Shown in pieces: positions 21,681 to 62,352 of a stretch of 64,000 nt of DNA. Positions within the stretch are counted from its first letter, which is position 1. Every line of letters begins with the position of its first letter. A program made the translations under genes and the position numbers. Under the pieces are notes generated by a model. It was not told where the DNA came from and did not search any database. It saw only the letters and a program-made list of their open reading frames with translations. The DNA is taken from contig JAEWZE010000048.1 in assembly GCA_023395465.1 (NCBI GenBank), forward strand, positions 12,744 to 76,743. The letters run 5' to 3'. Origin of the DNA: Pseudomonadota bacterium. GTDB lineage: Bacteria > Pseudomonadota > Gammaproteobacteria > Xanthomonadales > Xanthomonadaceae.

Positions 21681-21682
21681 CG

Positions 21683-23338: not shown

Positions 23339-23349
23339 GCGGCGCGGCG

Positions 23350-35985: not shown

Positions 35986-35996
35986 GCAGGCAAACC

Positions 35997-39243: not shown

Positions 39244-39277
39244 CCCGCACCACCCTACATCGAAGGAACCAACTGCA

Positions 39278-39832: not shown

Positions 39833-39852
39833 CCGAAAGGAGTCCCCGCGCC

Positions 39853-40449: not shown

Positions 40450-40453
40450 CCCG

Positions 40454-46268: not shown

Positions 46269-46301
46269 GTAAGTTTCAGCGCGGTTGCGCCGTGGTGTTC
46301 T
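46269..46301 (+). promoter_or_regulatory. Recurrent promoter-like element
   Basis: Box GTAAGTTTC at 46269-46277 and hexamer TGTTCT at 46296-46301, 35 nt before ATG 46336. Confidence 0.4.
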
Positions 46302-46335
46302 GGGTCAGACCAAACCGGGAACCGAAGGATTCTTC

Positions 46336-50041: not shown

Positions 50042-50284
50042 TCAGTCCATCACGTCGTCGGCGATGTCATCGGGTCCGCCGTACTCGCGGTGCGCGTCGT
50101 CCACGACGGACAGGTAGGCCTCGCGCAGGTCCGGGTCCGCGTCGTCGGCGAAGGCCTGGGCTTCAAGGTCACCTGCGCGCGCGCCGAACTCGGACCAGAA
50201 CTCGCGGCGCGTACGCCCCGATCGCTCGAAGCTGCGCAGCCAGGCGGCCAGGTGGTTCAGCGCGGTCGTCTGTTCGGGGGTCAT
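50042..50284 (-). CDS. Hypothetical acidic protein upstream of SRAP
   Basis: ATG at 50284. The stop lies 3 nt before the SRAP start. Confidence 0.45.
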   Translation of the reverse strand: MTPEQTTALNHLAAWLRSFERSGRTRREFWSEFGARAGDLEAQAFADDADPDLREAYLSVVDDAHREYGGPDDIADDVMD

Positions 50285-50363
50285 GGCCGGATGGTACGCC
50301 GCCACGGCCATCGATCCCACCGTACCGGTCGCCCCGCCGCACCCGTGTTCAGCCCCTCTCCAT

Positions 50364-50396
50364 GCAATTTTCTGGCGCCTCGCGATCCCGCATCGT
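50364..50396 (+). promoter_or_regulatory. Recurrent promoter-like element
   Basis: Box GCAATTTTC at 50364-50372 and hexamer CATCGT at 50391-50396, 43 nt before ATG 50439. Confidence 0.4.
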
Positions 50397-50438
50397 GTCC
50401 TTAACAGGGCGCTGCCCTTCAACGGACGACGAGCGAGC

Positions 50439-50867
50439 ATGAGCATCATCGACAAGGGGCGGGACATCATCCGCACGGAGGGCCACCTGGTCATCGCCAC
50501 CGGCGAGCCGGTCCGGATCTCGTACACGGTGGGTCTGACGCCCCGTCTGGGCTACGAGGTCTTCGTGATCGGGCTGCCCGTTAACGTCGCGCAGCACGTC
50601 CTCAACACGCTGGCTTCCACACTGGTCGAGAGCGAGATTGCCGACCGAGTTCCGGTCGATGAGGTGGCCAACGTGCCGCTGCGCCTGTCCTTCGTGCCGC
50701 TGGACACCACGCCTGCCACCGTCGCGCGCCTGCGCATGATCCCCGCCCTCGGGTACGCACCGCAGCGCATGCGGCAACTGCTGATCCCCGACACCGAGGG
50801 CGTCTTCCCCGGCGAGGAAGGCTACTCGCTTCCGTTCGCGCAGACGCTCGATGAAACAGGCATCTGA
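50439..50867 (+). CDS. DUF4262-like protein
   Basis: The segment ISYTVGLTPRLGYEVFVIGLP resembles the DUF4262 core (from memory). Confidence 0.5.
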   Translation: MSIIDKGRDIIRTEGHLVIATGEPVRISYTVGLTPRLGYEVFVIGLPVNVAQHVLNTLASTLVESEIADRVPVDEVANVPLRLSFVPLDTTPATVARLRMIPALGYAPQRMRQLLIPDTEGVFPGEEGYSLPFAQTLDETGI

Positions 50868-52283: not shown

Positions 52284-52721
52284 TCAGCTTTCGTCCCACA
52301 CCTCCACGTACAACCACTCATCGCGGTCGCAGTCCACGAAGGCATGGGCGTCGAGAAACGTCTCGCCGCGCCACTTCTCGGTCGCGACATCGCCGCCACC
52401 GATAAGCCAGCGATCGCGCGCGTCCGGCGGCTTTGGGATAAGCCGCGGAAGCAGGTCGATCGCCCTGCCGGTGTAGTGGAAGGGATAGCCGTTGCCGCCG
52501 AGGAACAGGATCGACCCGGCCTGGGCGAGATCATCGAGCCAACGCTTTCCAGGCGTGGAGGCCTGCCATTCGGCCACCAGCCCGCCGCGCGGCGCATCGA
52601 CCGGAGCAGGCTGCCTCCCACCGTCGAGCTGGCGGTGCACCGCCATGAACCATCCGAGCATTAGCGTCCCCGTGCGCTGGCGAATCCACATCGGACAGCG
52701 TAGCCGCAGCGGGCGACTCAT
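52284..52721 (-). CDS. Hypothetical protein (start uncertain)
   Basis: The distal two-thirds have a plausible composition (…GSILFLGGNGYPFHYTGRAIDLL…DEWLYVEVWDES). Candidate starts are at 52721, 52691 and 52661. Confidence 0.4.
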   Translation of the reverse strand: MSRPLRLRCPMWIRQRTGTLMLGWFMAVHRQLDGGRQPAPVDAPRGGLVAEWQASTPGKRWLDDLAQAGSILFLGGNGYPFHYTGRAIDLLPRLIPKPPDARDRWLIGGGDVATEKWRGETFLDAHAFVDCDRDEWLYVEVWDES

Positions 52722-52804
52722 CCAACGTGGACCGCAGGCTTCAGTCGCCGCCCACGCACCCCCGCCAGGTCGCGACTCGGTCACTACGCACGACGCTGAG
52801 AGCG

Positions 52805-52837
52805 CTAAGTTTCAACGATCTCGCGGGGTGTTGAGAT
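52805..52837 (+). promoter_or_regulatory. Recurrent promoter-like element
   Basis: Box CTAAGTTTC at 52805-52813 and hexamer TGAGAT at 52832-52837, 29 nt before ATG 52866. Confidence 0.4.
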
Positions 52838-52865
52838 TGACCCATACCCACCGCGAGACGAACAC

Positions 52866-53975
52866 ATGAGCAACGCCCTCTCCATCCACCTCGACTGCAC
52901 CATCAACGGCTCCTTCAAGACCTACCGCGCACAGCTCGAGCAGCGGGACGGCGGCTGGGTCGTCAACGCCCAGTACGGCGCGATCGGCAAGGCGCTCACG
53001 TCCACCACCAAGACTCCCTCGCCGGTGCCCTACTCGAAGGCGCTCGCTGCCTACAACAAGGTGGTCAAGGAAAAGCTGGCCAAGGGATACGTCGAAGTCG
53101 CCAGCTCAGGCGATCAGGGCAGCGCTGCAAACGTCGCACCCGCCGTCGTCGCCAAGGAGCGCGTGGACCTGCCGATCATGCTGCTCAACCCCATCACCGA
53201 CAGCGAAGCGCACGCGCTCGCCCACGACCCGGCCTGGTGCGCGGAGATCAAGCACGACGGCGAGCGCCGCTTGATCGTGATCGACAATGGGGATGCCTAC
53301 GGCGTGAACCGCACCGGCTTCAAGGTCGCGCTTTCGCCCGCCGTGCGCGCCGCCGCGCCGGCTGGCGACTTCCGGGGTCGCACGGTCCTCGACGGCGAGG
53401 ACATGGGCGATGACGGCGTAATCGTGTTCGACGTGCTGGCTTTCGACGGCCAGGACACTACGAGCCTGCCCCTATCCGCCCGCCTCGGCTACCGCGCCTG
53501 CGCCCGTGCGCGCCTGCCGGGTTTGGCCTACGCCACGACCGCCACCAGCGCCGCCGACAAGCTGGCCCTGCTTGACCAGGCCCGCATCACCACGCAGGAG
53601 GGCGTCGTCTGGAAGCGCCTCGATGCGCCCTACAGCGCGGGCCGACCGAACAGCGGCGGGAATGCCCTCAAGCAGAAGTTTTGGGAGGACGCGACGTTCC
53701 GCGTCGCCAGCCAAAACCCGACCAAGCGCAGCGTAGGTCTGGAAGTGCAGGACGGCCCCGGCCAGTGGCGCAACGTGGGCAACGTCACGATCCCGCCGAA
53801 CAAGTCGGTGCCCGGCGTCGGCGCGTTCGTGGACTGCTCCTACCTCTACGCCAACCTCCGCACCGGCTCCATCTACCAGCCGACGTATCTGCGAGAGCGC
53901 AACGACCTGACCGATGCGGACTGCCAGTTTGATCGGCTCAAGTTCGTGCAGGAACGCGAATCGCTCGCCGCGTAA
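52866..53975 (+). CDS. WGR-domain / ATP-dependent DNA ligase fusion
   Basis: The N-terminal WGR-like region is KTYRAQLEQRDGGWVVNAQYGAIG...KVVKEKLAKGYVEV. Ligase motifs seen: I EIKHDGER (Lys codon 53250-53252), III VLDGE, IV EGVVWK, V LKQKF. Confidence 0.75.
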   Translation: MSNALSIHLDCTINGSFKTYRAQLEQRDGGWVVNAQYGAIGKALTSTTKTPSPVPYSKALAAYNKVVKEKLAKGYVEVASSGDQGSAANVAPAVVAKERVDLPIMLLNPITDSEAHALAHDPAWCAEIKHDGERRLIVIDNGDAYGVNRTGFKVALSPAVRAAAPAGDFRGRTVLDGEDMGDDGVIVFDVLAFDGQDTTSLPLSARLGYRACARARLPGLAYATTATSAADKLALLDQARITTQEGVVWKRLDAPYSAGRPNSGGNALKQKFWEDATFRVASQNPTKRSVGLEVQDGPGQWRNVGNVTIPPNKSVPGVGAFVDCSYLYANLRTGSIYQPTYLRERNDLTDADCQFDRLKFVQERESLAA

Positions 53976-53988
53976 TTGACGCGAGGCC

Positions 53989-54021
53989 GCAATTTTCCAG
54001 GCCGCCCCGCCCTAGTTGAAT
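53989..54021 (+). promoter_or_regulatory. Recurrent promoter-like element
   Basis: Box GCAATTTTC at 53989-53997 and hexamer TTGAAT at 54016-54021. The hexamer contains the track TTG 54016, which favours ATG 54052 as the start. Confidence 0.4.
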
Positions 54022-54051
54022 AGCAACGGATCACAACCGGGAAGCAATGCC

Positions 54052-56040
54052 ATGATCGACTCCGCCGCCACCATCGCCCTCATCGACGCGCCGCCCGCCG
54101 ACGCGCACGCCGCAGCCGCCAACGCAGCCGCGATCACCGCCGAGCAGGCGACCAATGCAGACACGCAGGAGATCGAAGTCGCTTCGATCAGGGTCGATCC
54201 GGCGTTCAACCCGCGCAAGCGCTTCGATGACGCGGACATTGCGGAGTTCGCAGAGCGCATCCACACCAGCGGGTGGCTGTCGCCCCCGCTCGTGCGCCCT
54301 GACCCCTACGGCGAAGGCTTCCTGCTAGTCGCCGGTGAGCGCCGCCTGCGCGCGATCAAGCACCTGGGCTGGACGACCGTGCAGGTCACGGTGAAGTCGA
54401 TGAACGACACCGAGCATCGCAAGCTGGCTCTGGTGGAAAACCTCGACCGGCGCGAATTGAACGTCGCTGAAGAAGCGCTCGCCGCGCGGGATCATCTGGC
54501 TGCCTACGAGGGTGACCACGACGCAGCCGCCAGGGCGCTGGGGTGGCCGGTTGCCCGCCTGCGCCACCGGCTCAAGCTGCTGCACGCCTCGCCTGCTGTC
54601 ATCGACGCGCTGCTCAATGGGCGCATCCAGCTGGGCCACGCCGAGTTGCTGGCGACCCTGCCTGAGTCCAACCAGGACAAGGCGCTGCCGCGCGTCATCA
54701 GCGACGGCCTGACCGTGGCTGCGCTTCGCGAACAGATCAATGGCTTCGCCACCCCGCTGTCGAGCGCCATCTTCGACACCTCGGCCTGCGCCAACTGCCT
54801 GTTCAATACCTCCTGCCAGGGCACGCTGTTCGAGGCGCGCGTAGCCGAGGGCAACTGCACGAACAAGCCGTGCTTCACCCAAAAGACCGAGGAAGCGTTG
54901 GAGGCCAAGCGCGAGTCCATGAAGGCCGACTTCGGCGTGGTGGTGCTGGTGTCCGAGCGTGCGCCCGAGCAGTCGGTGCCGCTGGTGAAGTCCGGTCCTC
55001 GCGGCGTCGGCGCGGCGCAGTTCGATGCCTGCCGCACCTGCGAGTTCCGTGGTGCGGCGATCCACGACGCTCCCGGCCCGCGCTTGGGCACAGTCGAATC
55101 TCCGCTGTGCTTCAACACGTCCTGCCACGGCAACATGGTCAAGGCGTACCAGCAGCAGTTGGCAGAGGCCGAAGAATCCCAGGCGGCAGCTGATGCGCCC
55201 GAAGGCGCAGCCGCCCCCACGTCCACCACCAAGCCCGCCGCGTCGCAGGCTGCCGCCAAGGGGAAGGTCAAGACGGCCAAGGCGACGAAGGCCACTCCCA
55301 AGGCGCAGTCGGTCCTGCGTTCGGTGGCCGAGCAGTACGGGGCCATCGTGGCTCGCGCCGGTACTGAGGCCATCGGTCGCTCGCCGGTTCCGGCGCTCGC
55401 GCTTGCGGTGTACGCACTGTCCAAGCTGGGCGGGGTGGAGGCCAAGATCAGCGCTGGCGATTTGCGCGAGGGACTCGGCCTGCCCGACACGGTGGGCAAC
55501 TTCACCAACGCCACCGTCACCCTGGCCGCACTCGCGGCATGCGACGAGGCCGCGCTGAACAAGGCGATCCAGGGGATCAGTGCGCGCCTGCTGACGCACG
55601 AAGTCAACGACCGCCCCTTTGGTGGTCAGCTACAGCGTCGGGCGCTCCTGCCGAACCTGATCGCAGCCACGGGCGTCAACGTCGCTGACCATGTGGTCGT
55701 GGATACCGGGTTCCTCAACGCGCACACCAAGCCCGCCATCGAAGCGGTCCTGGAGGAATCCGGCTTCGCTGCGTGGATGGCTTCGCGCGAGGACGGCCCG
55801 AAGCAGTACCGCGCGATGCTGGCGGGGAAAAAGGAGGACTTGATCGCCGCCGTGCTGTCGAGCGGGTTCTCCTTCGCGGGATACGTCCCCAGCGGCCTTG
55901 ATTCCCAGGTCGCAGCGTGGCGGAAGGCCGAAGGCATGCCGCATGTGCCGCTGGCAACGCCCACCACGGACGAAGCCGCGCAGGGTGAGGCGCAGACCGA
56001 CGACTCGCAGGCCGGGCAGGAGCAAGCAGAAGCCGCCTGA
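54052..56040 (+). CDS. PRTRC-system ParB-family protein
   Basis: The ParB N-terminal domain is IEVASIRVDPAFNPRKRF...LLVAGERRLRAIKHLGW. It is the first gene of the cassette. An alternative TTG start is at 54016. Confidence 0.8.
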   Translation: MIDSAATIALIDAPPADAHAAAANAAAITAEQATNADTQEIEVASIRVDPAFNPRKRFDDADIAEFAERIHTSGWLSPPLVRPDPYGEGFLLVAGERRLRAIKHLGWTTVQVTVKSMNDTEHRKLALVENLDRRELNVAEEALAARDHLAAYEGDHDAAARALGWPVARLRHRLKLLHASPAVIDALLNGRIQLGHAELLATLPESNQDKALPRVISDGLTVAALREQINGFATPLSSAIFDTSACANCLFNTSCQGTLFEARVAEGNCTNKPCFTQKTEEALEAKRESMKADFGVVVLVSERAPEQSVPLVKSGPRGVGAAQFDACRTCEFRGAAIHDAPGPRLGTVESPLCFNTSCHGNMVKAYQQQLAEAEESQAAADAPEGAAAPTSTTKPAASQAAAKGKVKTAKATKATPKAQSVLRSVAEQYGAIVARAGTEAIGRSPVPALALAVYALSKLGGVEAKISAGDLREGLGLPDTVGNFTNATVTLAALAACDEAALNKAIQGISARLLTHEVNDRPFGGQLQRRALLPNLIAATGVNVADHVVVDTGFLNAHTKPAIEAVLEESGFAAWMASREDGPKQYRAMLAGKKEDLIAAVLSSGFSFAGYVPSGLDSQVAAWRKAEGMPHVPLATPTTDEAAQGEAQTDDSQAGQEQAEAA

Positions 56041-56055
56041 TCGACCGGGCGGCGT

Positions 56056-56088
56056 GCAAGTTTGAGGCGCGCCCCTGCCCCGCATCAT
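56056..56088 (+). promoter_or_regulatory. Recurrent promoter-like element
   Basis: Box GCAAGTTTG at 56056-56064 and hexamer CATCAT at 56083-56088, 36 nt before ATG 56124. Confidence 0.4.
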
Positions 56089-56123
56089 CGAATCGTAGTC
56101 AACACACACACCGGGAGATTCAA

Positions 56124-56669
56124 ATGGCTTTTCTCAACTCGGCCCGCAGGCTGGTCAACGAGAGCGATTCGCTCGTCGTGCGCCTGAGCGGCGACAAGGA
56201 TGGCGCGATCAAGGTGCTGATCGAGCCGCAGGTCAAGCTGCCGCAGCCGGAAACCGACGACGCGGAGTTGGCGGCGCTCCAGGCCGCGCTGGCAATGCCG
56301 CTGGTGATCCGATTCACCCCCGACACGGCCGATCTGGACGCGGCGCTGGGCGATGCTCTGCGCGGAATGGCGCAGGCCCGCGTCGCCACGGTCGGCGCGC
56401 TCGCTTCCTACGAGGAAGCGCAGGCCGAGGCACGCAACCAGGCGCAGATCGCTGCTCAGGCGAAGGCGAAGAAGCCCGCCACCAAGGCCAGCGCACCGGC
56501 GACCGCCGCCAAGGCCACCAGCGCGCCCACCACGGCCAGCGCAGCCCCGCTGCCCGCCGCTGCCGCACCGGCTGCCGACGCCGAGCCACGGGCTGCCAGC
56601 GAGGCCACCGCGCCTGCCACCGTGCAGGACAGCAGCGCCGCCGTTGACCAGCCCTCCATCTTCGACTGA
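56124..56669 (+). CDS. PRTRC-system protein E (assignment by position and size)
   Basis: 181 aa with a small N-terminal domain followed by an Ala/Pro/Lys-rich tail. It holds the second position in the cassette, as I recall for PRTRC. Confidence 0.5.
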   Translation: MAFLNSARRLVNESDSLVVRLSGDKDGAIKVLIEPQVKLPQPETDDAELAALQAALAMPLVIRFTPDTADLDAALGDALRGMAQARVATVGALASYEEAQAEARNQAQIAAQAKAKKPATKASAPATAAKATSAPTTASAAPLPAAAAPAADAEPRAASEATAPATVQDSSAAVDQPSIFD

Positions 56670-56679
56670 GGACCGGACC

Positions 56680-57078
56680 ATGACCGTCGAAATCCAGACA
56701 TTGACCCGCGTGTTCCGCTTCGGCGCGACCGAACTGGCGGACACCGACCCGACCGCTTTGCCGCAGGAAGTCCTGCGAGCCTATACCGGCGCCTACCCGT
56801 TCCTGGCGACCGCCACGGTGGGCGAGCCGGAAGTGGTGGGCGACCGCATGGTCTATCCGATCATCAAGCGCGAGGTCCAGACCAAGGGGGCGGCGCTGCG
56901 CCGCCTGACAAAGGCGCAGACCAGCCTGCTCGACCGCATCAGCGAAATCGCCAAGGCCGAGGCCACGACCGCCCCGGACAACGTGTCGCGCTGGTCGCCG
57001 CTGGCACAGGTGACGCGCGCGATTCTCAAGCGTCCGCCGACGCCGGTGGCAGACGCCATGATGGTGCCGATGCTGTGA
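56680..57078 (+). CDS. PRTRC-system protein C (candidate beta-grasp / ubiquitin-like)
   Basis: GAGGA precedes ATG 56680. The N-terminal 70 aa end ...IIKREVQTKG and are followed by a 62-aa extension. Confidence 0.55.
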   Translation: MTVEIQTLTRVFRFGATELADTDPTALPQEVLRAYTGAYPFLATATVGEPEVVGDRMVYPIIKREVQTKGAALRRLTKAQTSLLDRISEIAKAEATTAPDNVSRWSPLAQVTRAILKRPPTPVADAMMVPML

Positions 57079-58334
57079 CGTTCCTGCGCCTGCCCCGCAT
57101 CGCCGCCGCCAACGCCCAGGCCACGCAGAGCGCCGTGGCCGCTGGACTCAACGGCGTCACGCCTGAGATTCGCCAGCACGCGCTGCGCAAGGTGCGCGCC
57201 GCGATCCGCAACGGCCGGGTGCGCCCGGCCAAGGTCGAGCGGGCCTTGGAGCGTGGGGATGCGGGGCTGGCATCGCTGTTTCCGGTCGGGCAGATGCCCT
57301 CGACCCCGGCGATCCCGGCGTCCGCCCTGTCCACTGTGGGTGGCAGCGAGCGCGTGGCCAAGGCGCTGGATGATTGCAGCTGGGTGATCGAGCTGGCGAT
57401 GCGGCGCGGAGTGGACACCAGCGAGCTGGCCGAAGCCTTGTCCGGCGGCACGCTCCCCACCAACGCTGCGCACCTGCTGGTGGCGACCTGGAACCGCCTG
57501 CTCGACAGCTACCGCCCCGACTGGCTGCCTGCCGAGGTCACGGGCGACCGAGCCAAGCTGATGGCGCTGCCTGAGCCGCTGCGCCGCGAACACGCCGACC
57601 CAAGGGCGCTGTTCACCATCGAGCCGACCTCCCTCTGCCGCATGTTCGTCACCAGCGACACGCCCGAGTTCAACCTGGTGCTGCACGCCCTGCGCAAACT
57701 GGAAGAAGCCACCCACTACCCGCTCGCCGCTTTCGACCCTGACCGGGGCCGTGAGTGCTACATGGAATACTCAATGGGCGGCAGCATGCTTGACGACCTG
57801 GCGCAGATCGCGATCTGGCCCGATGGCGCGGACGAGCCGACCTTCGACACCGAAGCGGTGGCGAACCTCCTTGACGAGTTCGGGCACGAGCCTGAGTCGG
57901 CCGAGTATTTCATCGAAGCGGCGACGCACGAGCTTGTACGCGAGCGCAAGCTCAAGGCAGCGCCGAAGGTGGACCGTGACCCGGAGTTGCGCCACGCCTT
58001 GAAGGCGTCCCAGTCAAGCAACGCCAAGCTGGCACGCATCATCCTTGCGCTCGCACGCAGGATCAAAGCGCTGCCCGCGCCACCCAACGCATTCCAGCAC
58101 GACTTCTGCGGCTTCGGACTTCCCGTGCATCTGCTCTCGACATGGGACTGTGATTCCTTCCAGGATGAGCTGTCGAACGCAATCGACACCGAGTGCGGCG
58201 ACGAGGCACCCTCGATCACGTTCATGGCGGCCACGCAGTCGTTGTCCAAGATCGACGCGGCGCTGCGACGCCTGATCCCTGAAATGCTGGTGAGCGACTA
58301 CGTGTATGGCTTGATGCTGGCCGACCACGAATAA
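57075..58334 (+). CDS. PRTRC-system protein F (assignment by position and size)
   Basis: GTG overlaps the upstream stop (GTGA). The protein is 419 aa. Confidence 0.5.
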   Translation: MTFLRLPRIAAANAQATQSAVAAGLNGVTPEIRQHALRKVRAAIRNGRVRPAKVERALERGDAGLASLFPVGQMPSTPAIPASALSTVGGSERVAKALDDCSWVIELAMRRGVDTSELAEALSGGTLPTNAAHLLVATWNRLLDSYRPDWLPAEVTGDRAKLMALPEPLRREHADPRALFTIEPTSLCRMFVTSDTPEFNLVLHALRKLEEATHYPLAAFDPDRGRECYMEYSMGGSMLDDLAQIAIWPDGADEPTFDTEAVANLLDEFGHEPESAEYFIEAATHELVRERKLKAAPKVDRDPELRHALKASQSSNAKLARIILALARRIKALPAPPNAFQHDFCGFGLPVHLLSTWDCDSFQDELSNAIDTECGDEAPSITFMAATQSLSKIDAALRRLIPEMLVSDYVYGLMLADHE

Positions 58335-58363
58335 GTTTCCAGCGCTTGCGCGCTTGCTGAGAT
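58331..58363 (+). promoter_or_regulatory. Recurrent promoter-like element (internal to the PRTRC cassette)
   Basis: Box ATAAGTTTC at 58331-58339 and hexamer TGAGAT at 58358-58363, 31 nt before ATG 58394. Confidence 0.4.
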
Positions 58364-58393
58364 GGTCCTGTCGAAACACGCCGGGACCACGCA

Positions 58394-59176
58394 ATGCCTT
58401 CTCCGCTCCTCGTCGCCGCCACGCTCCGTGACACCACGCTCGCGCAGCTCCCCACGCCCTCGATGGCGCTGCTGTTCCACACCTCGGGCCAAGAGCTGGC
58501 CCTCGTCACCGCGCATGAAGTCATCCACGACGCGCACGGCTCGGCCCATATCGGCCCTGGCCGCGTGGCGCTGCCTTCGGACGAGCGCCGCGTCGCTGAC
58601 ATTCTGGCCAGCCGCAGCCGTCGCACGCGCATCGACCTGATGCCCGAGAACCTGCTGCATGCCGAGGCCGACGCGCTCGCGTGGTGGCTGCCGCCGACCC
58701 GCCGCGAAATGCTGGTCAAGGACCGCGAAGGCGTCGCCCACGCGCTCGATGTGGTGTGGCCGTCGCTGGTGGCGCTGGTGGTGCGCCGCAAGCTCTACCT
58801 GGTCGCGGTGGATGGCGATGCACGTCCGTCAGCCGATGCGGCCCTGTTCCATGCGCCCTGCGGGAACGTGTACGAGGACGGCTCGGTCTGCACGGGTTCG
58901 GCCGCACTGCCCCACGGCCAGGCCATCGCGGACCTGCCGGGATGGGAAGCCATCATCACGCACACGTACTGGACGCACGACAACACCCCGAAGGTGCTTC
59001 CGCCACCCAAGGCGCGCAAAGGCAAGCGTCCGCCGACCGACAACTACAGGGCGGCTGCCTTCTGGCTCGCTCGCGCGGGCAATGGCAAGCCCGTCACCAA
59101 ATCCGACATGGCGCCGCTGGGCATGACGCTCACCGCATGGATCGAGTCGATCATCGACGGCGAGGTTTCCCGCTGA
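58394..59176 (+). CDS. PRTRC-system protein B (E2/UBC-like by motif)
   Basis: LFHAPCGNVYEDGSVCTG resembles the E2 active-site region HPN-x-x-x-G-x-[IV]-C. The candidate catalytic Cys166 codon is 58889-58891. Confidence 0.6.
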   Translation: MPSPLLVAATLRDTTLAQLPTPSMALLFHTSGQELALVTAHEVIHDAHGSAHIGPGRVALPSDERRVADILASRSRRTRIDLMPENLLHAEADALAWWLPPTRREMLVKDREGVAHALDVVWPSLVALVVRRKLYLVAVDGDARPSADAALFHAPCGNVYEDGSVCTGSAALPHGQAIADLPGWEAIITHTYWTHDNTPKVLPPPKARKGKRPPTDNYRAAAFWLARAGNGKPVTKSDMAPLGMTLTAWIESIIDGEVSR

Positions 59177-59796
59177 TGGCCGCGCACCCGCTCGACGCCG
59201 CATTGGCCCACGCCGCGCCCCTGCGGGCCTCCCTCCACGGTGGCAATGCGCCCATCGGGGTCGGCAGCAAGGACTTCGTTGCGGCGGCCGACGGCCTCTA
59301 CGTCCGCACCGCTTCCCCGGCGCTCTCTGCCGCCGCGCTCGTCGCCCCCGCCGTGGACGCGCCCCTGCCCTACGCTCCGCTCCAGGCGAGCGTCGTCCCG
59401 GCCAACGGCCCGGTCCCATTGGCCCTGCTGCACACCTTCGCCGCGTGGGCGTCCGCCGATGCCGACCGCGAGATAGCCGCCGTCATCGAAATCTGTGGGG
59501 ACGGCTACCAGCTTCGCCGCATCGACACCGAGGACCGCAGCGCGGGCCATGTCACCTACGACGACCGGCTGGTGGACGACGACCGGCTCGTGGTGGACTT
59601 GCACTCACATGGGCGTCTGGACGCCTACTTCTCGGCGACCGATGACGCCAGCGACCGCAGCCGCCGTGGCCCGTACATCGCCTTCGTGTTCGGCCAGTGC
59701 CACGCACAGCCGCTGCAATGCTGCCGCCTCGTCGTTTCCCCGTTCCTGATCCCGCTCGACCTGAGCGACCTGGTTGCCCAAGGAGTTTTCGCATGA
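59176..59796 (+). CDS. PRTRC-system protein A (JAB/MPN metallopeptidase)
   Basis: The JAMM motif HSHGRLDAYFSATD (H-x-H-x7-S-x2-D) is encoded at 59602-59643, with an upstream Glu in EIAAVIE. The ATG overlaps the upstream TGA. Confidence 0.75.
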   Translation: MAAHPLDAALAHAAPLRASLHGGNAPIGVGSKDFVAAADGLYVRTASPALSAAALVAPAVDAPLPYAPLQASVVPANGPVPLALLHTFAAWASADADREIAAVIEICGDGYQLRRIDTEDRSAGHVTYDDRLVDDDRLVVDLHSHGRLDAYFSATDDASDRSRRGPYIAFVFGQCHAQPLQCCRLVVSPFLIPLDLSDLVAQGVFA

Positions 59797-60581
59797 GCCT
59801 TCGTTTCGACCTTCCGCAGTCCTGGCTCAATGGCAGGGTCAAGATCGCCGTCATCGGCGCGGGCGGCACCGGCTCGGACATGCTCGTGCGCCTTGCCAAG
59901 CTGCACATGCAGCTGGTGGCGCTCGGCGGAGCGGGCTTCGATGTCACTGTGTACGACGGCGACACCGTGAGCGCGAGCAACATCGGTCGCCAGCACTTCC
60001 CCCCGTGCGCGCTGGGCCTCAACAAGAGCCTGACGCTCGTGAACTCGGTCAATCTCGCCTATCAGCTCGACTGGACAGGTGTCCCGTCCAACTTCGACCT
60101 GGGTCATGACCTGCGCGATCTGCGCTACGGAACGGACCTGGTGATCTGCTGCGTGGACAAGGCCGCGTTCCGCGTGTCGCTGTGCAAGGCCATGCGCGGC
60201 CAGAACTCCGAAGTGCTGCTGCTCGACTGCGGAAACGGGCGTGACCTCGGCCAGATGGTGCTGGGCCACCTGGGCGTGCCGCGCGGGATGCGCCTGCCAA
60301 ACGTCTACGACCTGTGGCCGGAGATCGAGCGCGTGGACGACAGCGAAGCGCCGTCCTGCTCGGCACACGAATCCATGCTCAAGCAGGCGTGGCCGGTGAA
60401 TCAGGCTGTCGCCCTGCTCGCCGTCGAGCTGCTGTGGACGCTGATGCGGCAGGGCTGGACCGACTACCACGGCGCGACGTTCCAGCTCGCGCCGATGCGG
60501 ACCTCCCCGCTGATGGTGGACCCGGCCACCTGGTCCTTCATGGGCTACGAGTGCGAGTCCACGCTGGCGAAGGCCGCCTGA
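59793..60581 (+). CDS. PRTRC-system ThiF-family (E1-like) protein
   Basis: AAGGAG lies 7 nt upstream. The Rossmann motif is VIGAGGTGS, followed by DLVICCVDKAAFR. ATGA overlaps the protein A stop. Confidence 0.8.
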   Translation: MSLRFDLPQSWLNGRVKIAVIGAGGTGSDMLVRLAKLHMQLVALGGAGFDVTVYDGDTVSASNIGRQHFPPCALGLNKSLTLVNSVNLAYQLDWTGVPSNFDLGHDLRDLRYGTDLVICCVDKAAFRVSLCKAMRGQNSEVLLLDCGNGRDLGQMVLGHLGVPRGMRLPNVYDLWPEIERVDDSEAPSCSAHESMLKQAWPVNQAVALLAVELLWTLMRQGWTDYHGATFQLAPMRTSPLMVDPATWSFMGYECESTLAKAA

Positions 60582-60596
60582 CCGGACCGGGGTTGC

Positions 60597-60619
60597 GACG
60601 CCGGTTGCGCTCCGGCGTC
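60597..60619 (+). terminator. Hairpin after the PRTRC operon (no T-tract)
   Basis: An 8-bp stem GACGCCGG/CCGGCGTC with loop TTGCGCT. Confidence 0.3.
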
Positions 60620-60634
60620 ACGTACCCTGTTGCC

Positions 60635-61333
60635 ATGACGAAGCGCCTGCGTCCGACACGGACACCCACTCGACACCTGCTCGCCGCCCTGCTGCTCTGC
60701 ATGGCTGTCCCTCCCGCTGCCGCCGAAGTCACCGGACGCGCCAGCGTCGTGGACGGCGACACGCTGGAAGTTCGGGGCACGCGCATGCGCCTGCATGGCA
60801 TAGACGCACCAGAGTCGGACCAGTCCTGCCGCCGGACCGATGGCACGGCCTGGCGCTGCGGCCAGCAGTCCGCGCTGGCGCTCGACGCGATGATCGAGGC
60901 TAGGCCGGTGCGCTGCGTGCCCCGGTCCACGGATCGGTACGGCCGTACCGTGGCCGAGTGCTGGGTGGGTGGTCAGTCCATCAACCGCTGGATGGTGGCC
61001 CACGGCTGGGCGACCGCCTATCGCGAGTATTCCCAGCAGTTCGTCACAGACGAGCAGTCCGCCCGCGCGGCACGCCGGAACATCTGGTCGGGCACGTTCG
61101 AGCCGCCCGCGACGTACCGTCGAGCACGGACGACGGCAGCGCGGCGCCCTCCCGCCCAGCCGCCAAGCCCGGCATGCGTCATCAAGGGGAACATCAGCTC
61201 GTCCGGCCGCATCTACCACTCCCCCGGGCAGCGTGACTACGACAGGACCGTCATCGACGTGGCAACCGGTGAGCGCTGGTTCTGCTCACCCGTCGAGGCC
61301 CAGGCGGCCGGTTGGCGACCCGCACAGCGATAG
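60635..61333 (+). CDS. Secreted thermonuclease (SNase) family nuclease with a C-terminal Cys-containing domain
   Basis: The signal peptide ends AAA-E. The SNase core is VVDGDTLEV...RLHGIDAPE...RYGRTVAEC. The C-terminus is CVIKGNISSSGRIYHSPGQRDYDRT...FCSPVEAQAAGWRPA. Confidence 0.75.
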   Translation: MTKRLRPTRTPTRHLLAALLLCMAVPPAAAEVTGRASVVDGDTLEVRGTRMRLHGIDAPESDQSCRRTDGTAWRCGQQSALALDAMIEARPVRCVPRSTDRYGRTVAECWVGGQSINRWMVAHGWATAYREYSQQFVTDEQSARAARRNIWSGTFEPPATYRRARTTAARRPPAQPPSPACVIKGNISSSGRIYHSPGQRDYDRTVIDVATGERWFCSPVEAQAAGWRPAQR

Positions 61334-61425
61334 GCAGCCGGAATCCCGGGCTGGACCGATCCCCGCCCCACTACCGCGCACATAGAGCCGGCAATACACT
61401 CCCATCGGGGAAAGGGGAGATCATC

Positions 61426-62352
61426 GTGGGAACGATCTACAAGCTGCTGGGCATCGTCGCGCTGCTGGCGGGGGCATGGCTGCTCCATTCTTTCTACGTC
61501 GACTATCGGACCAACGCTCGCCATTACCTGCTTGCGTGGGACAGCCCCGCCGGCGTCCATGAGCGGTTTCTCGAGGCGCTCGCCAAGCGCGGTGTGCGAC
61601 CGGAGAGCACCGAAGTCCGGGCTAACCCCCGCTACTACACGGGCTTCGTCAAGCACCGTAGTGATCTGGCGAATGGCTGCAGACCGCGGGCGGGAGCTTG
61701 GTCGCTGGATAGCCCATCCCAATGGGTCTGTCGCCGCCCGTGGACCGAGCGCACCTACGTTCGGATCGTGCACCCTGCGGTGAGCTACGAAGAGGCGTTG
61801 GACAAAGCCCGGCAAGCTCATCCCCGCTCCACCTACGGCATGGTCCCATCGCAAGCATCAGCAGGCGGCTCGCCATCGCCGTCGCAGCGTGCCGCCAGTC
61901 TTTGGCTGGGCGTCATCGCCCCAGCGGCCATGATCCTCACTTCGCTCGCGCTACTCGCCTCGATTCTGGCGTCGTGGCTGCGGGCCCGCAACGAGTTCCG
62001 CCCGTCGCCGCAGCCCAGCCCGGTCTTTGCCACACAGGGCACGATGCGCCCGATGACGCTACCCGATCGGCTGAAAGACGCCTTCGGTGACGATCTGCCA
62101 GTGACTGTCGGCGAGGCGACGAAGGATTGCCCGCTGGTGGTCACGGAGCCGGTGGATTACGTCTCCGTCGAGTATGCGGTCGCGAAATACCTGATGGCGG
62201 GCAAGGAGTGGAAGAAGCTGCGCCAGAATGTGTTGCGGCTCAACGGCAGGATCGTCGACGAACTGGTCTTCGCGGTTCGCGACGGCCCGTACAGCGAGTA
62301 TGCAGAGCGTTCGTTCTACTTCGACGTCACCACCGGCTTCATGCGGCGCTGA
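61426..62352 (+). CDS. Hypothetical two-TM membrane protein
   Basis: GTG 61426 has AGGGGAG 6 nt upstream. Confidence 0.5.
   Translation: MGTIYKLLGIVALLAGAWLLHSFYVDYRTNARHYLLAWDSPAGVHERFLEALAKRGVRPESTEVRANPRYYTGFVKHRSDLANGCRPRAGAWSLDSPSQWVCRRPWTERTYVRIVHPAVSYEEALDKARQAHPRSTYGMVPSQASAGGSPSPSQRAASLWLGVIAPAAMILTSLALLASILASWLRARNEFRPSPQPSPVFATQGTMRPMTLPDRLKDAFGDDLPVTVGEATKDCPLVVTEPVDYVSVEYAVAKYLMAGKEWKKLRQNVLRLNGRIVDELVFAVRDGPYSEYAERSFYFDVTTGFMRR

What the first reader, a model, noticed from the sequence alone, without database searches (positions are those of the whole stretch)
54052..60581. Complete PRTRC cassette: a ParB-linked E1 / E2-like / JAB / beta-grasp system on a conjugative element
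Seven tightly packed, partly overlapping + strand genes match the order and sizes I recall for the TIGRFAMs-defined ParB-Related, ThiF-Related Cassette (ParB, E, C, F, B, A, ThiF). The sequence itself shows four hallmarks. ThiF carries a Rossmann/adenylation motif (VIGAGGTGS). Protein A carries a full JAMM metalloprotease motif (HSHGRLDAYFSATD). Protein B carries an E2-like active-site stretch. Protein C is a small candidate beta-grasp protein. That is the component list of a ubiquitin-like conjugation/deconjugation pathway, here joined to a ParB-family DNA-binding protein and two proteins with no recognisable domain (E and F). Related bacterial E1/E2/JAB operons (CBASS Cap2/Cap3, Bil) have recently been tied to phage defence. 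To my knowledge the PRTRC cassette has no experimentally established function, target or link to conjugation. The cassette also holds two copies of the recurrent promoter-like box (56056 and 58331), which suggests sub-operon control.
Basis: partly seen in the sequence, partly recalled or inferred. Interest (0 to 1): 0.85.

Follow-up and report, generated by a model that had tools for sequence, protein, structure and literature searches.

The report
Divergent PRTRC ubiquitin-like conjugation cassette
Seven adjacent genes on a large mobile element encode a bacterial ubiquitin-like tagging kit (E1, E2-like enzyme, JAB protease, small tag) next to a ParB DNA-binding protein; it is a diverged member of the PRTRC family, catalogued since 2006 but still without a known function, and here the tag is made as a precursor that must be cut before it can be used.

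Summary
54052-60581 holds seven co-directional, abutting or overlapping genes in the order ParB-E-C-F-B-A-ThiF.

- **Family placement.** ParB and ThiF score above the curated NCBIfam PRTRC cut-offs. A, B, C and E match their PRTRC models below cut-off. F matches nothing.
- **Known kind.** The core equals operon type "6d" of Iyer, Burroughs and Aravind (2006). I found no experimental work on it.
- **New here, protein C.** It is a 132-aa precursor. The beta-grasp ends at Gly70, followed by a 62-aa extension with an invariant TPVADAMMVPML tail.
- **New here, JAB link.** Across 71 cassettes, 30 tags are extended and all 30 have the JAB gene. All 31 JAB-less cassettes have tags ending exactly at Gly.
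- **New here, F slot.** It is the fastest-evolving position. Here it holds a confidently modelled protein with no relative in the PDB or BFVD (predicted viral structure) libraries.

Verdict: a diverged new member of a known, functionally unsolved family. Interest is moderate.

The parts
54052..56040 (+). PRTRC-type ParB (662 aa): ParB N-terminal domain with a GERRLR motif (54334-54351), HTH domain, then two CxxC...Cx4C modules (54787-55125) and a long C-terminal region
   Evidence: TIGR03734 at 411.8 bits (cut-off 278.6); Pfam ParB_N and HTH_ParB. Eight Cys (C246, C249, C269, C274, C327, C330, C353, C358) are each conserved in 30-31 of 32 ParB homologues.
56124..56669 (+). Protein E (181 aa): N-terminal domain, Lys/Ala-rich patch, Ala/Pro-rich low-complexity linker, C-terminal ...DQPSIFD tip
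   Evidence: TIGR03741 E 3.6e-6, 26.9 bits, below the 37.95 cut-off. No Pfam hit, including PRTRC_E, at E<=1. It sits in the same position as E in all sampled cassettes. Tail pattern.
56680..57078 (+). Protein C, ubiquitin-like protein precursor (132 aa)
   Evidence: Pfam Prok_Ub E 1.2e-14 (54.2 bits, cut-off 25); TIGR03738 at 38.2 bits, below the 45.95 cut-off. Fourteen homologues of 131-135 aa.
56680..56889 (+). Beta-grasp domain of C, ending at Lys69-Gly70 (QTKG at 56878-56889)
   Evidence: K69 and G70 are conserved in 71 of 71 homologues. Canonical proteins stop exactly there, e.g. ...GAKG* in Cupriavidus.
56890..57075 (+). 62-aa C-terminal extension of C, with an invariant tail TPVADAMMVPML (57040-57075)
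   Evidence: The tail, W105 and R118 are invariant in 14 of 14 homologues even at 49% overall identity. No Pfam family at E<=1. Extensions of 43-76 aa occur in 30 of 71 sampled cassettes, always together with the JAB gene.
57075..58334 (+). F-slot protein (419 aa), orphan alpha/beta protein
   Evidence: No NCBIfam or Pfam hit for it or for 24 relatives. Only 30 representatives at E<=1e-3 among 1.84 billion proteins. AlphaFold2 pLDDT 85.3, pTM 0.76. Foldseek best E 1.2 against PDB and 0.84 against BFVD. Weak similarity to canonical F: BLASTP E 5e-5; hhalign probability 13-21%.
58394..59176 (+). Protein B, E2-like (260 aa); candidate catalytic Cys166 (58889-58891) with Asn158 eight residues upstream
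   Evidence: Pfam Prok-E2_D E 2.4e-28; TIGR03737 at 126 bits, below the 131.45 cut-off. W97, P123, P155, N158, C166, G168 and W184 are each conserved in 77-81 of 81 homologues, and all are present here.
59176..59796 (+). Protein A, JAB/JAMM metallopeptidase with an N-terminal JAB-N (DUF2016) domain (206 aa); HSHGRLDAYFSATD at 59602-59643
   Evidence: Pfam Prok-JAB (35.8 bits) and DUF2016 (25.8 bits); TIGR03735 at 92.6 bits, below the 101.8 cut-off. E99, H143, H145, S153 and D156 are each conserved in 47-49 of 49 homologues, and all are present here.
59793..60581 (+). PRTRC ThiF-family E1-like adenylating enzyme (262 aa, single domain); IGAGGTGS at 59853-59876; invariant Cys189 at 60357-60359
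   Evidence: TIGR03736 at 214.8 bits (cut-off 144.75). G22, G24, G25, G27, D55, R66, K78, D122, R127, D145 and S188-C189-S190 are invariant in 40 diverse homologues. AAGGAG sits 7 nt upstream of the ATG.
56058..56064 (+). AAGTTTG box, 66 nt upstream of the start of E
58333..58339 (+). AAGTTTC box, 61 nt upstream of the start of B
   Evidence: A box sits at the same F-B junction in Alterluteimonas (L008, position 8537).
52807..52813 (+). AAGTTTC box, 59 nt upstream of the WGR/ligase-like gene that precedes ParB
   Evidence: A box sits at the same place upstream of the WGR gene in Rhodanobacter (L003, position 8168, 61 nt upstream).
52866..53975 (+). Conserved upstream neighbour: WGR domain plus ATP-dependent-ligase-like nucleotidyltransferase (369 aa)
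   Evidence: Pfam WGR and DNA_ligase_A_M. The translation shows IKHDG, which fits the ligase KxDG motif as I recall it. It lies directly upstream of the cassette in Alterluteimonas, Rhodanobacter and Sulfuritalea, and nearby in Noviherbaspirillum.
60314..61333 (+). Conserved downstream neighbour: SNase-type thermonuclease with a C-terminal sunset domain (longest ORF given; the true start is probably later)
   Evidence: Pfam SNase E 2.3e-16; NCBIfam sunset domain. An SNase gene also flanks the cassette in Alterluteimonas, Rhodanobacter and L005.

Best explanation
**What it is.** This is a diverged (Lysobacterales-clade) PRTRC cassette, that is, operon type '6d' of Iyer, Burroughs and Aravind (2006). 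It encodes a ubiquitin-like protein conjugation and deconjugation pathway carried in the backbone of a large plasmid- or ICE-type element.

**Proposed sequence of events.**
1. Protein C is made as an inactive 132-aa precursor.
2. The JAB metallopeptidase A cuts after Gly70 and removes the 62-aa extension.
3. The single-domain E1 (ThiF) adenylates Gly70 and probably holds it as a thioester on Cys189.
4. The tag passes to Cys166 of the E2-like protein B.
5. B, possibly guided by the fast-evolving F-slot protein acting as substrate selector, attaches it to a target lysine.
6. A can also reverse the modification.

ParB, protein E and the neighbouring ligase-like, SNase and (in relatives) SSB and helicase genes suggest the pathway acts on or near the element's DNA. 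I think the likeliest role is establishment or maintenance of the element, rather than classical host phage defence.

**Shown here:** gene content, gene order, intact catalytic residues, the precursor nature of C, and the co-occurrence of extended tags with the JAB gene.

**Inferred:** every biochemical step, the role of F, the target and the biological role.

**My probabilities:** PRTRC/6d-type cassette about 0.95; real protein conjugation with JAB-dependent maturation about 0.6; a DNA-linked establishment or maintenance role about 0.35.
For: **Family placement and order.**

**Invariant residues, all present in the window.**
- E1: GxGGxG, D55, R66, K78, D122, R127, C189.
- E2-like: N158-x7-C166. 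By my recollection this is the same Asn-to-Cys spacing as in canonical E2s.
- JAMM: E99, H143, H145, S153, D156.
- Tag: K69-G70 in 71 of 71 homologues.

**Precursor tag.** Canonical tags end at ...KG*, whereas this one continues for 62 aa. In 71 cassettes from 80 genome loci, all 30 extended tags co-occur with the JAB gene, and all 31 JAB-less cassettes have tags ending at Gly (Fisher p 1.2e-11, not corrected for phylogeny). Extensions fall into at least five classes in different lineages.

**Precedent.** The Type II Bil tag carries residues after its Gly and is cleaved at that Gly by its JAB protease BilC (PMC10557695).

**E1 affinity.** The PRTRC ThiF profile scores eukaryotic ubiquitin-type E1 adenylation domains (E about 2e-10) above Cap2 (5e-7), ThiF (3e-6) and MoeB (7e-6).

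**F slot.** It evolves fastest: 40/23/24/26% identity in four relatives, against 68/56/42/45% for ThiF. It splits into at least four sequence clusters.

**DNA-metabolism context.** WGR-ligase, ParB and SNase are in the window. In relatives the neighbours include SSB, SNF2/DEAD/UvrD helicases, RdgC, DUF932, and mobH-traD 6.3 kb downstream.
Against: - No experiment on any PRTRC or 6d system was found, so every biochemical step is an inference.
- Four components score below the curated cut-offs, and F cannot be tied to PRTRC_F.
- The E1 is a minimal 262-aa ThiF/MoeB-sized protein. It lacks the separate Cys domain and the UFD of canonical E1s (by length and Pfam architecture). No E3 is recognisable.
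- JAB-less cassettes exist in 31 of 71 cases, so deconjugation is not essential to the family.
- ParB is adjacent in only 24 of 59 cassettes and is missing in a close Rhodanobacter relative. This weakens any ParB-centred mechanism.
- The JAB-extension association is confounded by phylogeny: most JAB-less loci are Bacteroidota.
- Within the window no relaxase or T4SS gene was found.
- The invariant C-terminal tail suggests the extension does more than block the Gly. I cannot explain what.
Confidence: 0.6

Rival explanations
1. It is an anti-phage or anti-MGE defence system carried as cargo. Like Bil, it would conjugate the tag to an invader protein, with the hypervariable F-slot protein as the invader-recognising part.
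For: - Related operon families are defence systems: 6C is Type II Bil, and CBASS uses Cap2/Cap3.
- The E1 gives domain-level PADLOC hits to Cap2-type E1-E2 models (E 5.5e-9).
- Fast evolution of the F slot is typical of conflict systems.
- The WGR neighbour hits the PADLOC candidate-system models WGR_XIII and HEAT-ARM_XIII.
- A ThsB_TIR gene lies 9 kb from a Flavobacterium cassette.
- The window holds a GmrSD_N-domain protein.
Against: - No PADLOC model matches B, A, C, E or F.
- In the loci I inspected, the cassette sits in element backbones beside ParB, SSB, DUF932, helicases and relaxase modules, from Bacteroidota to Proteobacteria. It does not sit in variable defence islands.
- The held papers on Bil and Bub do not list 6D among the systems shown to defend.
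Confidence: 0.2
2. It is a counter-defence or host-manipulation module expressed early after transfer. It would tag or de-tag recipient proteins, for example neutralising host ubiquitin-like immunity or DNA-repair factors, to help the incoming element establish.
For: - Neighbours such as ssb, helicases, DUF932, a Mom-like gene and PAPS-reductase are of kinds common in early-entering regions (my reading). Of these, the leading-region paper I read names only SSBs and methyltransferases as enriched, alongside anti-defence genes (PMC11541004).
- In the Rhodanobacter plasmid the cassette lies just upstream of mobH-traD.
- Protein E ends in an acidic stretch with a hydrophobic tip that recalls the SSB C-terminal tail (the resemblance is from my own knowledge).
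Against: - No oriT was mapped, so a 'leading region' position is unproven.
- Nothing shows early expression.
- I searched papers for 'leading region' and 'anti-defence' together with ThiF or ubiquitin; none of the 20 listed hits linked these genes to leading regions.
Confidence: 0.12
3. It is a sulfur-carrier or cofactor-type ThiS/MoaD-ThiF pathway, or another non-conjugating adenylation system, and the E2-like and JAB proteins have unrelated roles.
For: The E1 is the size of ThiF/MoeB and has a single domain. Half of the tags end in a free Gly, like ThiS and MoaD.
Against: - ThiF equivalog models score only 22-31 bits against cut-offs of 159-275.
- An E2-like protein with an invariant Cys is present in 81 of 81 homologues, and the JAMM peptidase is intact.
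- No thiamine or molybdopterin genes are nearby.
- There is no CxxC zinc site in the E1; only C120 and C189 are conserved.
Confidence: 0.04
4. The cassette is a decaying remnant, which would explain the sub-threshold scores and the unrecognisable F.
For: Four of the seven proteins fall below curated cut-offs and F has no family.
Against: - All ORFs are intact with translational coupling.
- GC3 is 84-86% for the five of the seven ORFs listed, like other genes in the window.
- All catalytic residues are kept.
- The same seven-gene block recurs in Alterluteimonas, and the same block (F and B left unnamed) on a Xanthomonas plasmid; metagenomes hold 14 C and 30 F-family representatives with conserved lengths.
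Confidence: 0.03

Closest known systems
Canonical PRTRC cassette (NCBIfam/TIGRFAMs TIGR03734-TIGR03742), e.g. the Cupriavidus sp. USMAA2-4 plasmid and Noviherbaspirillum; equals operon type '6d' of Iyer, Burroughs and Aravind 2006 (PMC1779556)
   Same: - Same seven positions in the same order: ParB-E-C-F-B-A-ThiF.
- Same Pfam families for C, B, A and ThiF.
- Same invariant residues.
- JAB with a JAB-N (DUF2016) domain.
- Found on plasmids and ICEs.
- No function is known for either.
   Different: - Here C is a 132-aa precursor, against 69 aa ending at Gly in the canonical form.
- F is not recognised by TIGR03742 or by Pfam alpha-hel2.
- E is not recognised by Pfam PRTRC_E.
- A, B, C and E score below the curated cut-offs.
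- The closest relatives are confined to Lysobacterales and to metagenomes.
Type II BilABCD (operon type 6C; PMC10557695)
   Same: - It has a tag, an E2, a JAB protease and an E1 in the order tag ... E2-DUB-E1.
- The tag has residues after the conserved Gly, and the JAB protease exposes the Gly.
- It has no recognisable E3.
   Different: - The Bil E1 is multidomain (IAD-AAD-CYS), with a Prok-E2_C-annotated N-terminus. Here the E1 is a 262-aa single domain.
- The Bil E2 is the CEHH type, not Prok-E2_D.
- Bil tails are at most 9 residues and not conserved. Here the extension is 62 aa with an invariant tip.
- Bil has no ParB, E or F-slot genes.
- Bil sits in defence islands and is a proven phage defence.
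Bub operons (type 6E; PMC11601596) and Type II CBASS Cap2/Cap3 (type 6A/6B)
   Same: They are bacterial E1/E2/JAB-type chemistry on mobile or defence loci. Bub also still lacks a demonstrated biological role.
   Different: - Cap2 is an E1-E2 fusion that conjugates a CD-NTase, and no separate tag is involved.
- Bub has its own E1/E2 architecture and an extra component, BubE.
- Apart from domain-level E1-E2 (Cap2-type) hits to the E1, no PADLOC model matches the cassette proteins.
- The PDB Citrobacter BubCD chain matches the PRTRC E1 profile only at E 0.008.
ThiS-ThiF and MoaD-MoeB sulfur-carrier pairs
   Same: They pair a small beta-grasp protein bearing a C-terminal Gly with a ThiF-fold adenylating enzyme of similar size.
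   Different: - They have no E2-like or JAB partner.
- The equivalog models are far below cut-off here.
- The context is different.
- The PRTRC E1 profile scores ubiquitin-type E1s higher than ThiF or MoeB.
Eukaryotic ubiquitin precursors (ubiquitin fused to ribosomal proteins L40 and S27a; from my own knowledge)
   Same: The tag is made with a sizeable C-terminal polypeptide that a protease must remove at the terminal Gly before activation.
   Different: This is an analogy only. There is no sequence relation, and the function of the extension here is unknown.

Membership tests
PRTRC cassette (NCBIfam TIGR03734-03742) | ParB-family protein of the PRTRC type | tested here: met
   TIGR03734 at 411.8 bits against a cut-off of 278.6, covering model positions 3-553 of 555.
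PRTRC cassette (NCBIfam TIGR03734-03742) | ThiF-family protein of the PRTRC type | tested here: met
   TIGR03736 at 214.8 bits against a cut-off of 144.75. 121 homologues at E<=1e-10; the sources that name them call them PRTRC ThiF.
PRTRC cassette (NCBIfam TIGR03734-03742) | Proteins A, B, C and E homologous to the PRTRC A/B/C/E models | tested here: met
   Each protein's best and only NCBIfam hit is the matching PRTRC model: A E 2.3e-26, B 1.4e-36, C 1.2e-9, E 3.6e-6. All four bit scores fall 4-29% below the curated cut-offs (92.6/101.8, 126/131.45, 38.2/45.95, 26.9/37.95). They are therefore homologous but diverged. PGAP names the Xanthomonas plasmid orthologues PRTRC E, C, A, ThiF and ParB, and leaves F and B as hypothetical.
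PRTRC cassette (NCBIfam TIGR03734-03742) | Protein F (TIGR03742; Pfam alpha-hel2) | tested here: inconclusive
   - No hit at E<=10 for the window protein, and none at E<=0.01 for 24 relatives.
- hhalign against beta-proteobacterial F: probability 13.6-21%, E 0.001-0.002.
- BLASTP E 5e-5 over 119 aa, with a shared W..DGDE.T.D.EA..L...FG motif.
- Same slot and similar size.
- TIGR03742 itself recognises only 20 of 48 F-slot proteins across cassettes.
PRTRC cassette (NCBIfam TIGR03734-03742) | Co-directional, tightly packed order ParB-E-C-F-B-A-ThiF | tested here: met
   Coordinates and overlaps. Same order as the annotated Cupriavidus cassette and as the sampled loci.
PRTRC cassette (NCBIfam TIGR03734-03742) | Carried on a plasmid or other mobile element | tested here: inconclusive
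   The window has a PilN-type IVB pilus cluster, DsbC and a TnpB gene, but no relaxase, T4SS gene, integrase or tRNA. Relatives lie on Xanthomonas and Rhodanobacter megaplasmids, one of them 6.3 kb from mobH-traD.
Operon type 6d (Iyer, Burroughs, Aravind 2006) | Small beta-grasp protein with a highly conserved Gly at the C-terminus | tested here: inconclusive
   The beta-grasp and the conserved Gly70 are present (Prok_Ub; G70 in 71 of 71). However, the Gly is internal and followed by 62 residues. It would be terminal only after processing, which is untested.
Operon type 6d (Iyer, Burroughs, Aravind 2006) | JAB peptidase with an N-terminal JAB-N domain, an E1-like protein, an E2-like protein with a conserved Cys, and a rapidly diverging alpha-helical protein | tested here: met
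   - Prok-JAB plus DUF2016.
- ThiF.
- Prok-E2_D with C166 conserved in 80 of 81.
- The F slot is the fastest-evolving position, and its model is helix-rich with a small sheet.
- The definition is read from PMC1779556.
BilABCD (Type I/II) | Multidomain E1 (IAD-AAD-CYS) and CEHH/Bil-type E2 | tested here: not met
   The E1 is 262 aa with a single ThiF domain. The E2 is Prok-E2_D. No PADLOC model other than the Cap2-type E1-E2 models hits the cassette proteins. Definition from PMC10557695.
Type II CBASS (Cap2/Cap3) | E1-E2 fusion protein with a CD-NTase and effector genes | tested here: not met
   E1 and E2 are separate genes. None of the nine ORFs scanned across 52866-61333 matched a CD-NTase family. 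The PADLOC E1-E2 hits cover only the adenylation domain.
ThiS/ThiF, MoaD/MoeB sulfur-carrier systems | ThiF/MoeB equivalog and a biosynthetic gene context | tested here: not met
   NF006395 at 30.6 bits against a cut-off of 159, and TIGR02356 at 22.1 against 275.25. No thi or moa genes nearby.

The most novel reading that the evidence does not exclude
**Licensing step.** PRTRC tags are licensed by proteolysis. In about 40% of cassettes, including this one, the ubiquitin-like protein is made with a lineage-specific 43-76-aa C-terminal domain. Here that domain ends in the invariant TPVADAMMVPML. The cassette's own JAB peptidase must remove it.

**Substrate choice.** The hypervariable F-slot protein, which here has a fold with no known relative, would be the substrate-selecting, E3-like factor.

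**Biological use.** The system would then be a ubiquitination machine used by a mobile element for its own ends. It would modify DNA-bound element or host proteins, recruited through ParB and the SSB-tail-like protein E, to secure establishment or maintenance in new hosts. That is a different use from host immunity.
Probability: 0.2. Interest if true: 0.85.

Novelty: new member of a known kind. Interest (0 to 1): 0.5.

Why it matters
- **Open question.** PRTRC/6d is one of the last widespread bacterial E1/E2/JAB/tag operon families without any experimental function. It is common on plasmids and ICEs from Bacteroidota to Proteobacteria. These elements include carriers of catabolic traits and, in other reports, resistance genes.
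- **Contrast with relatives.** The sister families Bil and CBASS Cap2/Cap3 turned out to be immune systems. A family tied to element backbones may instead reveal ubiquitin-like chemistry used for plasmid or ICE biology.
- **What this adds.** This cassette is not unique, but the comparison gives concrete, cheap tests:
  - a defined cleavage site, Gly70|Ala71;
  - a strict link between the JAB gene and extended tags;
  - named catalytic residues;
  - a candidate specificity subunit (F);
  - a candidate shared promoter box.
- **Limit.** If the cassette proves to be an ordinary family member, the value here is confirmation and sharper hypotheses, not discovery.

Tried and rejected
- **First F model.** An AlphaFold2 model of F from a 5-sequence alignment was poor (pLDDT 55), so I did not use it. 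I repeated it with 25 sequences (pLDDT 85).
- **Fold searches.** Foldseek of the good F model against PDB and BFVD found nothing, so no fold assignment is possible.
- **Linking F to PRTRC_F.** I tried NCBIfam at E<=10, a scan of 25 and then 48 F-slot proteins, and hhalign. All were negative or weak.
- **DNA similarity.** Megablast of 24 kb of the window against plasmids found no match. Distant blastn of the cassette found only short 160-465 nt hits.
- **Loci search.** The 40-sequence ThiF alignment was too diverse for the loci search, so I redid it with 15 sequences.
- **PDB by sequence.** Searches with B, A, C and ThiF found no solved relative.
- **PADLOC.** It gave no system-level match.
- **Promoters.** The sigma-70 scan found no promoter in 52700-61500.
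- **Extensions and E.** Pfam on five tag extensions and on E found nothing at E<=1.
- **Source organism.** The cluster look-up did not reveal an accession or organism for the window.
- **Literature.** Searches for functional work on PRTRC, Prok-E2_D or 6D found annotation mentions only. One preprint glosses PRTRC as 'Pilus Retraction/Contraction', which conflicts with the ParB-Related, ThiF-Related Cassette name I know for this family.
- **Rejected readings.** A sulfur-carrier pathway and gene decay; see the rival explanations.

Full report
**1. The observation**

The region 54052-60581 holds seven + strand genes with short gaps or overlaps:
- ParB 54052-56040
- E 56124-56669
- C 56680-57078
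- F 57075-58334 (GTGA overlap with C)
- B 58394-59176
- A 59176-59796 (TGATG overlap with B)
- ThiF 59793-60581 (ATGA overlap with A, AAGGAG 7 nt upstream)

An independent gene call on the same sequence in a public assembly gives the same starts. GC3 of the five of these ORFs listed by my GC3 screen is 84-86%, like other genes of this 68% G+C window.

**2. Family placement**

NCBIfam gives, for six of the seven proteins, the matching PRTRC model as the best hit.

| Protein | Bits | Cut-off | E-value |
|---|---|---|---|
| ParB | 411.8 | 278.6 | 4.3e-123 |
| ThiF | 214.8 | 144.75 | 1.1e-63 |
| B | 126 | 131.45 | 1.4e-36 |
| A | 92.6 | 101.8 | 2.3e-26 |
| C | 38.2 | 45.95 | 1.2e-9 |
| E | 26.9 | 37.95 | 3.6e-6 |

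Pfam adds Prok_Ub for C, Prok-E2_D for B, Prok-JAB plus DUF2016 for A, ThiF, and ParB_N plus HTH_ParB. F has no hit in Pfam or PADLOC, and none in NCBIfam even at E<=10.

They coincide with the residues that are invariant or nearly so in large homologue sets:
- ThiF: G22, G24, G25, G27, D55, R66, K78, D122, R127, D145 and S188-C189-S190, in 40 diverse sequences.
- B: W97, P123, P155, N158, C166, G168, W184, in 77-81 of 81.
- A: E99, H143, H145, S153, D156, in 47-49 of 49.
- C: K69-G70, in 71 of 71.

The Asn158-x7-Cys166 spacing in B equals, by my recollection, the Asn-Cys spacing of canonical E2s.

**3. What is already known**

The core (tag, alpha-helical protein, E2-like, JAB with JAB-N, E1-like) is operon type '6d' of Iyer, Burroughs and Aravind (2006). 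They already noted three things: the conserved terminal Gly, the E2-like Cys without the canonical His, and a 'rapidly diverging alpha-helical protein' (PMC1779556).

The sister types have since been studied. 6C became Type II Bil, 6E became Bub, and the Cap2/Cap3 type belongs to CBASS (PMC10557695, PMC11601596). I found no paper that tests 6d/PRTRC. 'PRTRC' occurs in 34 held papers; the five I read mention it only as annotation or a gene list. Further searches found nothing functional. No PRTRC protein has a solved structure detectable by sequence.

**4. Relatives and context**

No close DNA relative exists in the plasmid collection. Protein searches show a small clade: 14 C proteins, and 30 F-family representatives among 1.84 billion proteins. 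It includes:
- Alterluteimonas muca
- a Xanthomonas citri 220-kb plasmid
- Rhodanobacter denitrificans plasmids
- metagenome contigs

In these the block WGR/ligase-like gene - ParB - E - C - F - B - A - ThiF - (small ORF) - SNase recurs. SSB, SNF2/DEAD/UvrD helicases, an S8 autotransporter, RdgC and an M48 peptidase lie nearby.

In one Rhodanobacter plasmid ParB is missing, and the cassette is followed by ssb, a helicase, a TPR-repeat gene, traT, a hypothetical gene, mobH and traD.

The window itself carries these features:
- a PilN-type IVB pilus cluster (32948-41575)
- DsbC
- a TnpB gene
- an S8 autotransporter
- an SRAP gene
- no relaxase, T4SS gene, integrase or tRNA among the ORFs I scanned

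'Conjugative element' is therefore plausible, but it is supported by relatives, not by the window.

**5. Comparative anatomy of the family**

I fetched 80 genome loci with a ThiF profile. I annotated them with iterated local HMMs seeded from the window proteins. Four results came out.

- *Gene order.* E-C-[F slot]-B-(A)-ThiF is the order in every locus where these genes were found.
- *ParB.* It is adjacent in 24 of 59 loci that have enough upstream sequence. The one Flavobacterium locus I inspected has SSB and DUF932 there instead.
- *Protein C comes in two forms.* Of 71 cassettes among the 80 genome loci, 40 tags end exactly at the conserved ...KG, one has two extra residues, and 30 carry 43-76 more residues.
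- *Extension classes.* They look unrelated between lineages:
  - Lysobacterales: ...W...R.PTPVADAMMVPML
  - Syntrophorhabdus type: ...LPPWQELEPV
  - Gallionella/Sulfuritalea type: ...RRRDDGLTYVEP...
  - Polaromonas type: ...MPxxAFGFWG
  - others ending IPLLI or CPLLL

None of the extensions matches a Pfam family.

**6. The JAB-extension link**

All 30 extended tags sit in cassettes that have the JAB gene. In 31 cassettes no JAB gene or JAMM motif is found within 10 kb, and all 31 tags end at Gly. Ten further cassettes have the JAB gene and a tag that ends at Gly or two residues after it. The Fisher p-value is 1.2e-11, but it is not corrected for phylogeny, and most JAB-less loci are Bacteroidota.

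The simplest reading is that the JAB peptidase matures the precursor, besides any deconjugating role. Type II Bil gives a biochemical precedent: BilC cuts BilA at its conserved Gly.

In the window's clade the last 12 residues are invariant in 14 of 14 proteins, down to 49% overall identity. The extension is therefore more than a cap. I cannot say what it binds.

**7. The F slot**

Every cassette in which I could delimit the slot (all but one) has a 290-480-aa ORF between C and B, but its sequence is labile. The findings were:
- Four clusters plus three singletons at phmmer E<1e-5.
- TIGR03742 recognises 20 of 48.
- hhalign links the beta-proteobacterial, Bacteroidota and delta-type clusters at 90% probability, through the delta cluster.
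- hhalign links the window's clade to the beta- and delta-type clusters at only 12-14% (E about 0.002), and to the Bacteroidota cluster not at all (0.2%).
- There is one shared local motif.
- Within the clade F is the fastest-evolving component: 40/23/24/26% identity, against 68/56/42/45% for ThiF.

With 25 sequences AlphaFold2 gives a confident model (pLDDT 85.3, pTM 0.76). It is helix-rich with a small sheet and a conserved but poorly ordered N-terminal segment. Foldseek finds nothing in PDB or BFVD (best E 1.2 and 0.84).

Homology of this protein to PRTRC_F is therefore inconclusive. Its position and its rate of change fit a specificity or adaptor role, but that is inference.

**8. Mechanism proposed**

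*Shown:* gene set, gene order, intact active sites, precursor tag, JAB-extension association, DNA-metabolism neighbourhood.

*Inferred:*
1. A cuts C after Gly70.
2. ThiF adenylates Gly70 and may form a Cys189 thioester.
3. The tag moves to B Cys166.
4. It is conjugated to an unknown target, perhaps chosen by F.
5. A reverses the modification.

The PRTRC ThiF profile scores eukaryotic ubiquitin-type E1 adenylation domains (UBA6, UBA3, UBA1; E about 2e-10) above Cap2, ThiF and MoeB. That fits protein conjugation better than sulfur transfer.

For the biological role I favour a function tied to the element's DNA, in establishment or maintenance. The reason is the constant company of ParB or DUF932, SSB, ligase-like, nuclease and helicase genes, and the position beside mobH-traD in a relative. 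My confidence in that role is only about 0.35. Phage or MGE defence (about 0.2) and counter-defence in the recipient (about 0.12) remain open. Sulfur-carrier chemistry and gene decay are unlikely.

**9. The promoter-like box**

AAGTTTS occurs 9 times in the window (3.26 +/- 1.8 expected; 1 of 100 shuffles reaches 9). Eight copies are on the + strand; the seven I inspected lie in gaps about 14-66 nt upstream of + strand ORF starts. Three of them would split the block into WGR-ParB (52807), E-C-F (56058) and B-A-ThiF (58333).

A box is found at the same F-B junction in Alterluteimonas and upstream of the WGR gene in Rhodanobacter. No sigma-70-like promoter is detected in the region. The box is thus a real, partly conserved feature, and its function is untested.

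**10. Verdict**

This is a new, diverged member of a known family whose function is still open. It is not a new kind of system.

The added value lies in three observations that I did not find described in the papers I read:
- the precursor tag with an invariant tail
- its strict pairing with the JAB gene across the family
- the orphan, fast-evolving F-slot protein

I score interest at 0.5.

Noticed in passing
window 16204, 18035, 25775, 30248, 46271, 52807, 56058, 58333 (+ strand); 5858-5864 (- strand): A recurrent (Y)AAGTTTC/G box lies almost only on the + strand. The seven copies I inspected lie in gaps upstream of + strand ORFs. Three copies (25775, 30248, 46271) are followed about 33 nt later by GG(T/C)CAGACC. 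It may be an element-specific promoter or regulator site. It is conserved at two equivalent positions in relatives (L008 at 8537, L003 at 8168).
   Followed up: partly
window 54787-55125 (ParB aa 246-358): PRTRC-type ParB proteins carry eight conserved cysteines arranged as two CxxC...Cx4C modules (30-31 of 32 homologues). They are probably two zinc-binding modules located after the HTH domain. No Pfam domain covers them.
   Followed up: partly
window 56124-56669 (protein E) and E homologues in L001-L087: Most proteobacterial E proteins share a Lys/Ala-rich patch, an acidic low-complexity stretch and a short hydrophobic C-terminal tip (SIFD, NLFA, NIFA, DLF, SLF). This recalls the acidic C-terminal tail of SSB; the resemblance is from my own knowledge and is not tested.
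   Followed up: no
window 52866-53975: A WGR domain fused to an ATP-dependent-ligase-like nucleotidyltransferase (IKHDG in the translation) lies just upstream of ParB. It is conserved next to PRTRC cassettes in Lysobacterales and some Betaproteobacteria. It also hits the PADLOC candidate-system models WGR_XIII (E 1.8e-16) and HEAT-ARM_XIII (E 8e-11).
   Followed up: partly
window 60314-61333: An SNase-type thermonuclease carries a C-terminal 'sunset' domain. The ORF translation includes a hydrophobic, signal-like stretch (LLAALLLCMAVPPAAA) after an internal Met, so the true start is probably later than 60314. SNase genes also flank related cassettes.
   Followed up: partly
window 46285-49035: An S8 subtilase autotransporter (916 aa) is present. 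S8 peptidase genes also lie next to the cassette in the Xanthomonas plasmid pXAS220 and in Alterluteimonas.
   Followed up: no
window 32948-41575 and 43806-44567: A type IVB pilus gene cluster: PilN secretin above the NCBIfam cut-off, PilO-like protein, two T2SSE ATPases and a T2SSF platform protein. A DsbC-like disulfide isomerase lies nearby. No relaxase or T4SS gene was seen in the window.
   Followed up: partly
window 49127-50038 (-), 50283-50867 (+): An SRAP (SOS-response-associated peptidase) gene on the - strand and a DUF4262 gene lie between the autotransporter and the cassette. DUF4262 also occurs near a related cassette (L005).
   Followed up: no
window 19263-20630 and 23259-23981: An IS605-family TnpB (OrfB, Cas12f-like TNB domain) and a protein with a GmrSD_N restriction-endonuclease domain. 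Several large ORFs (3606-4727, 9112-10635, 21281-23338) have no family at all.
   Followed up: no
L009, L010 (Aquimonas): The nearest genome relatives after Alterluteimonas keep only B-A-ThiF. In L010, the one I inspected, there is no C, E or F gene upstream; unrelated genes take their place. These are truncated or rearranged cassettes.
   Followed up: partly
L088 (GCA_041307425.1 contig, 2 Mb): A PRTRC-type ThiF homologue (41% identity) stands alone among metabolic and transport genes, outside any cassette.
   Followed up: no
L092-L171 (IMG/VR contigs): 166 stretches in the viral-contig collection encode PRTRC-type ThiF relatives (up to 39% identity, mostly 29-37%). I did not check whether these are true phages or misclassified integrated elements.
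   Followed up: no
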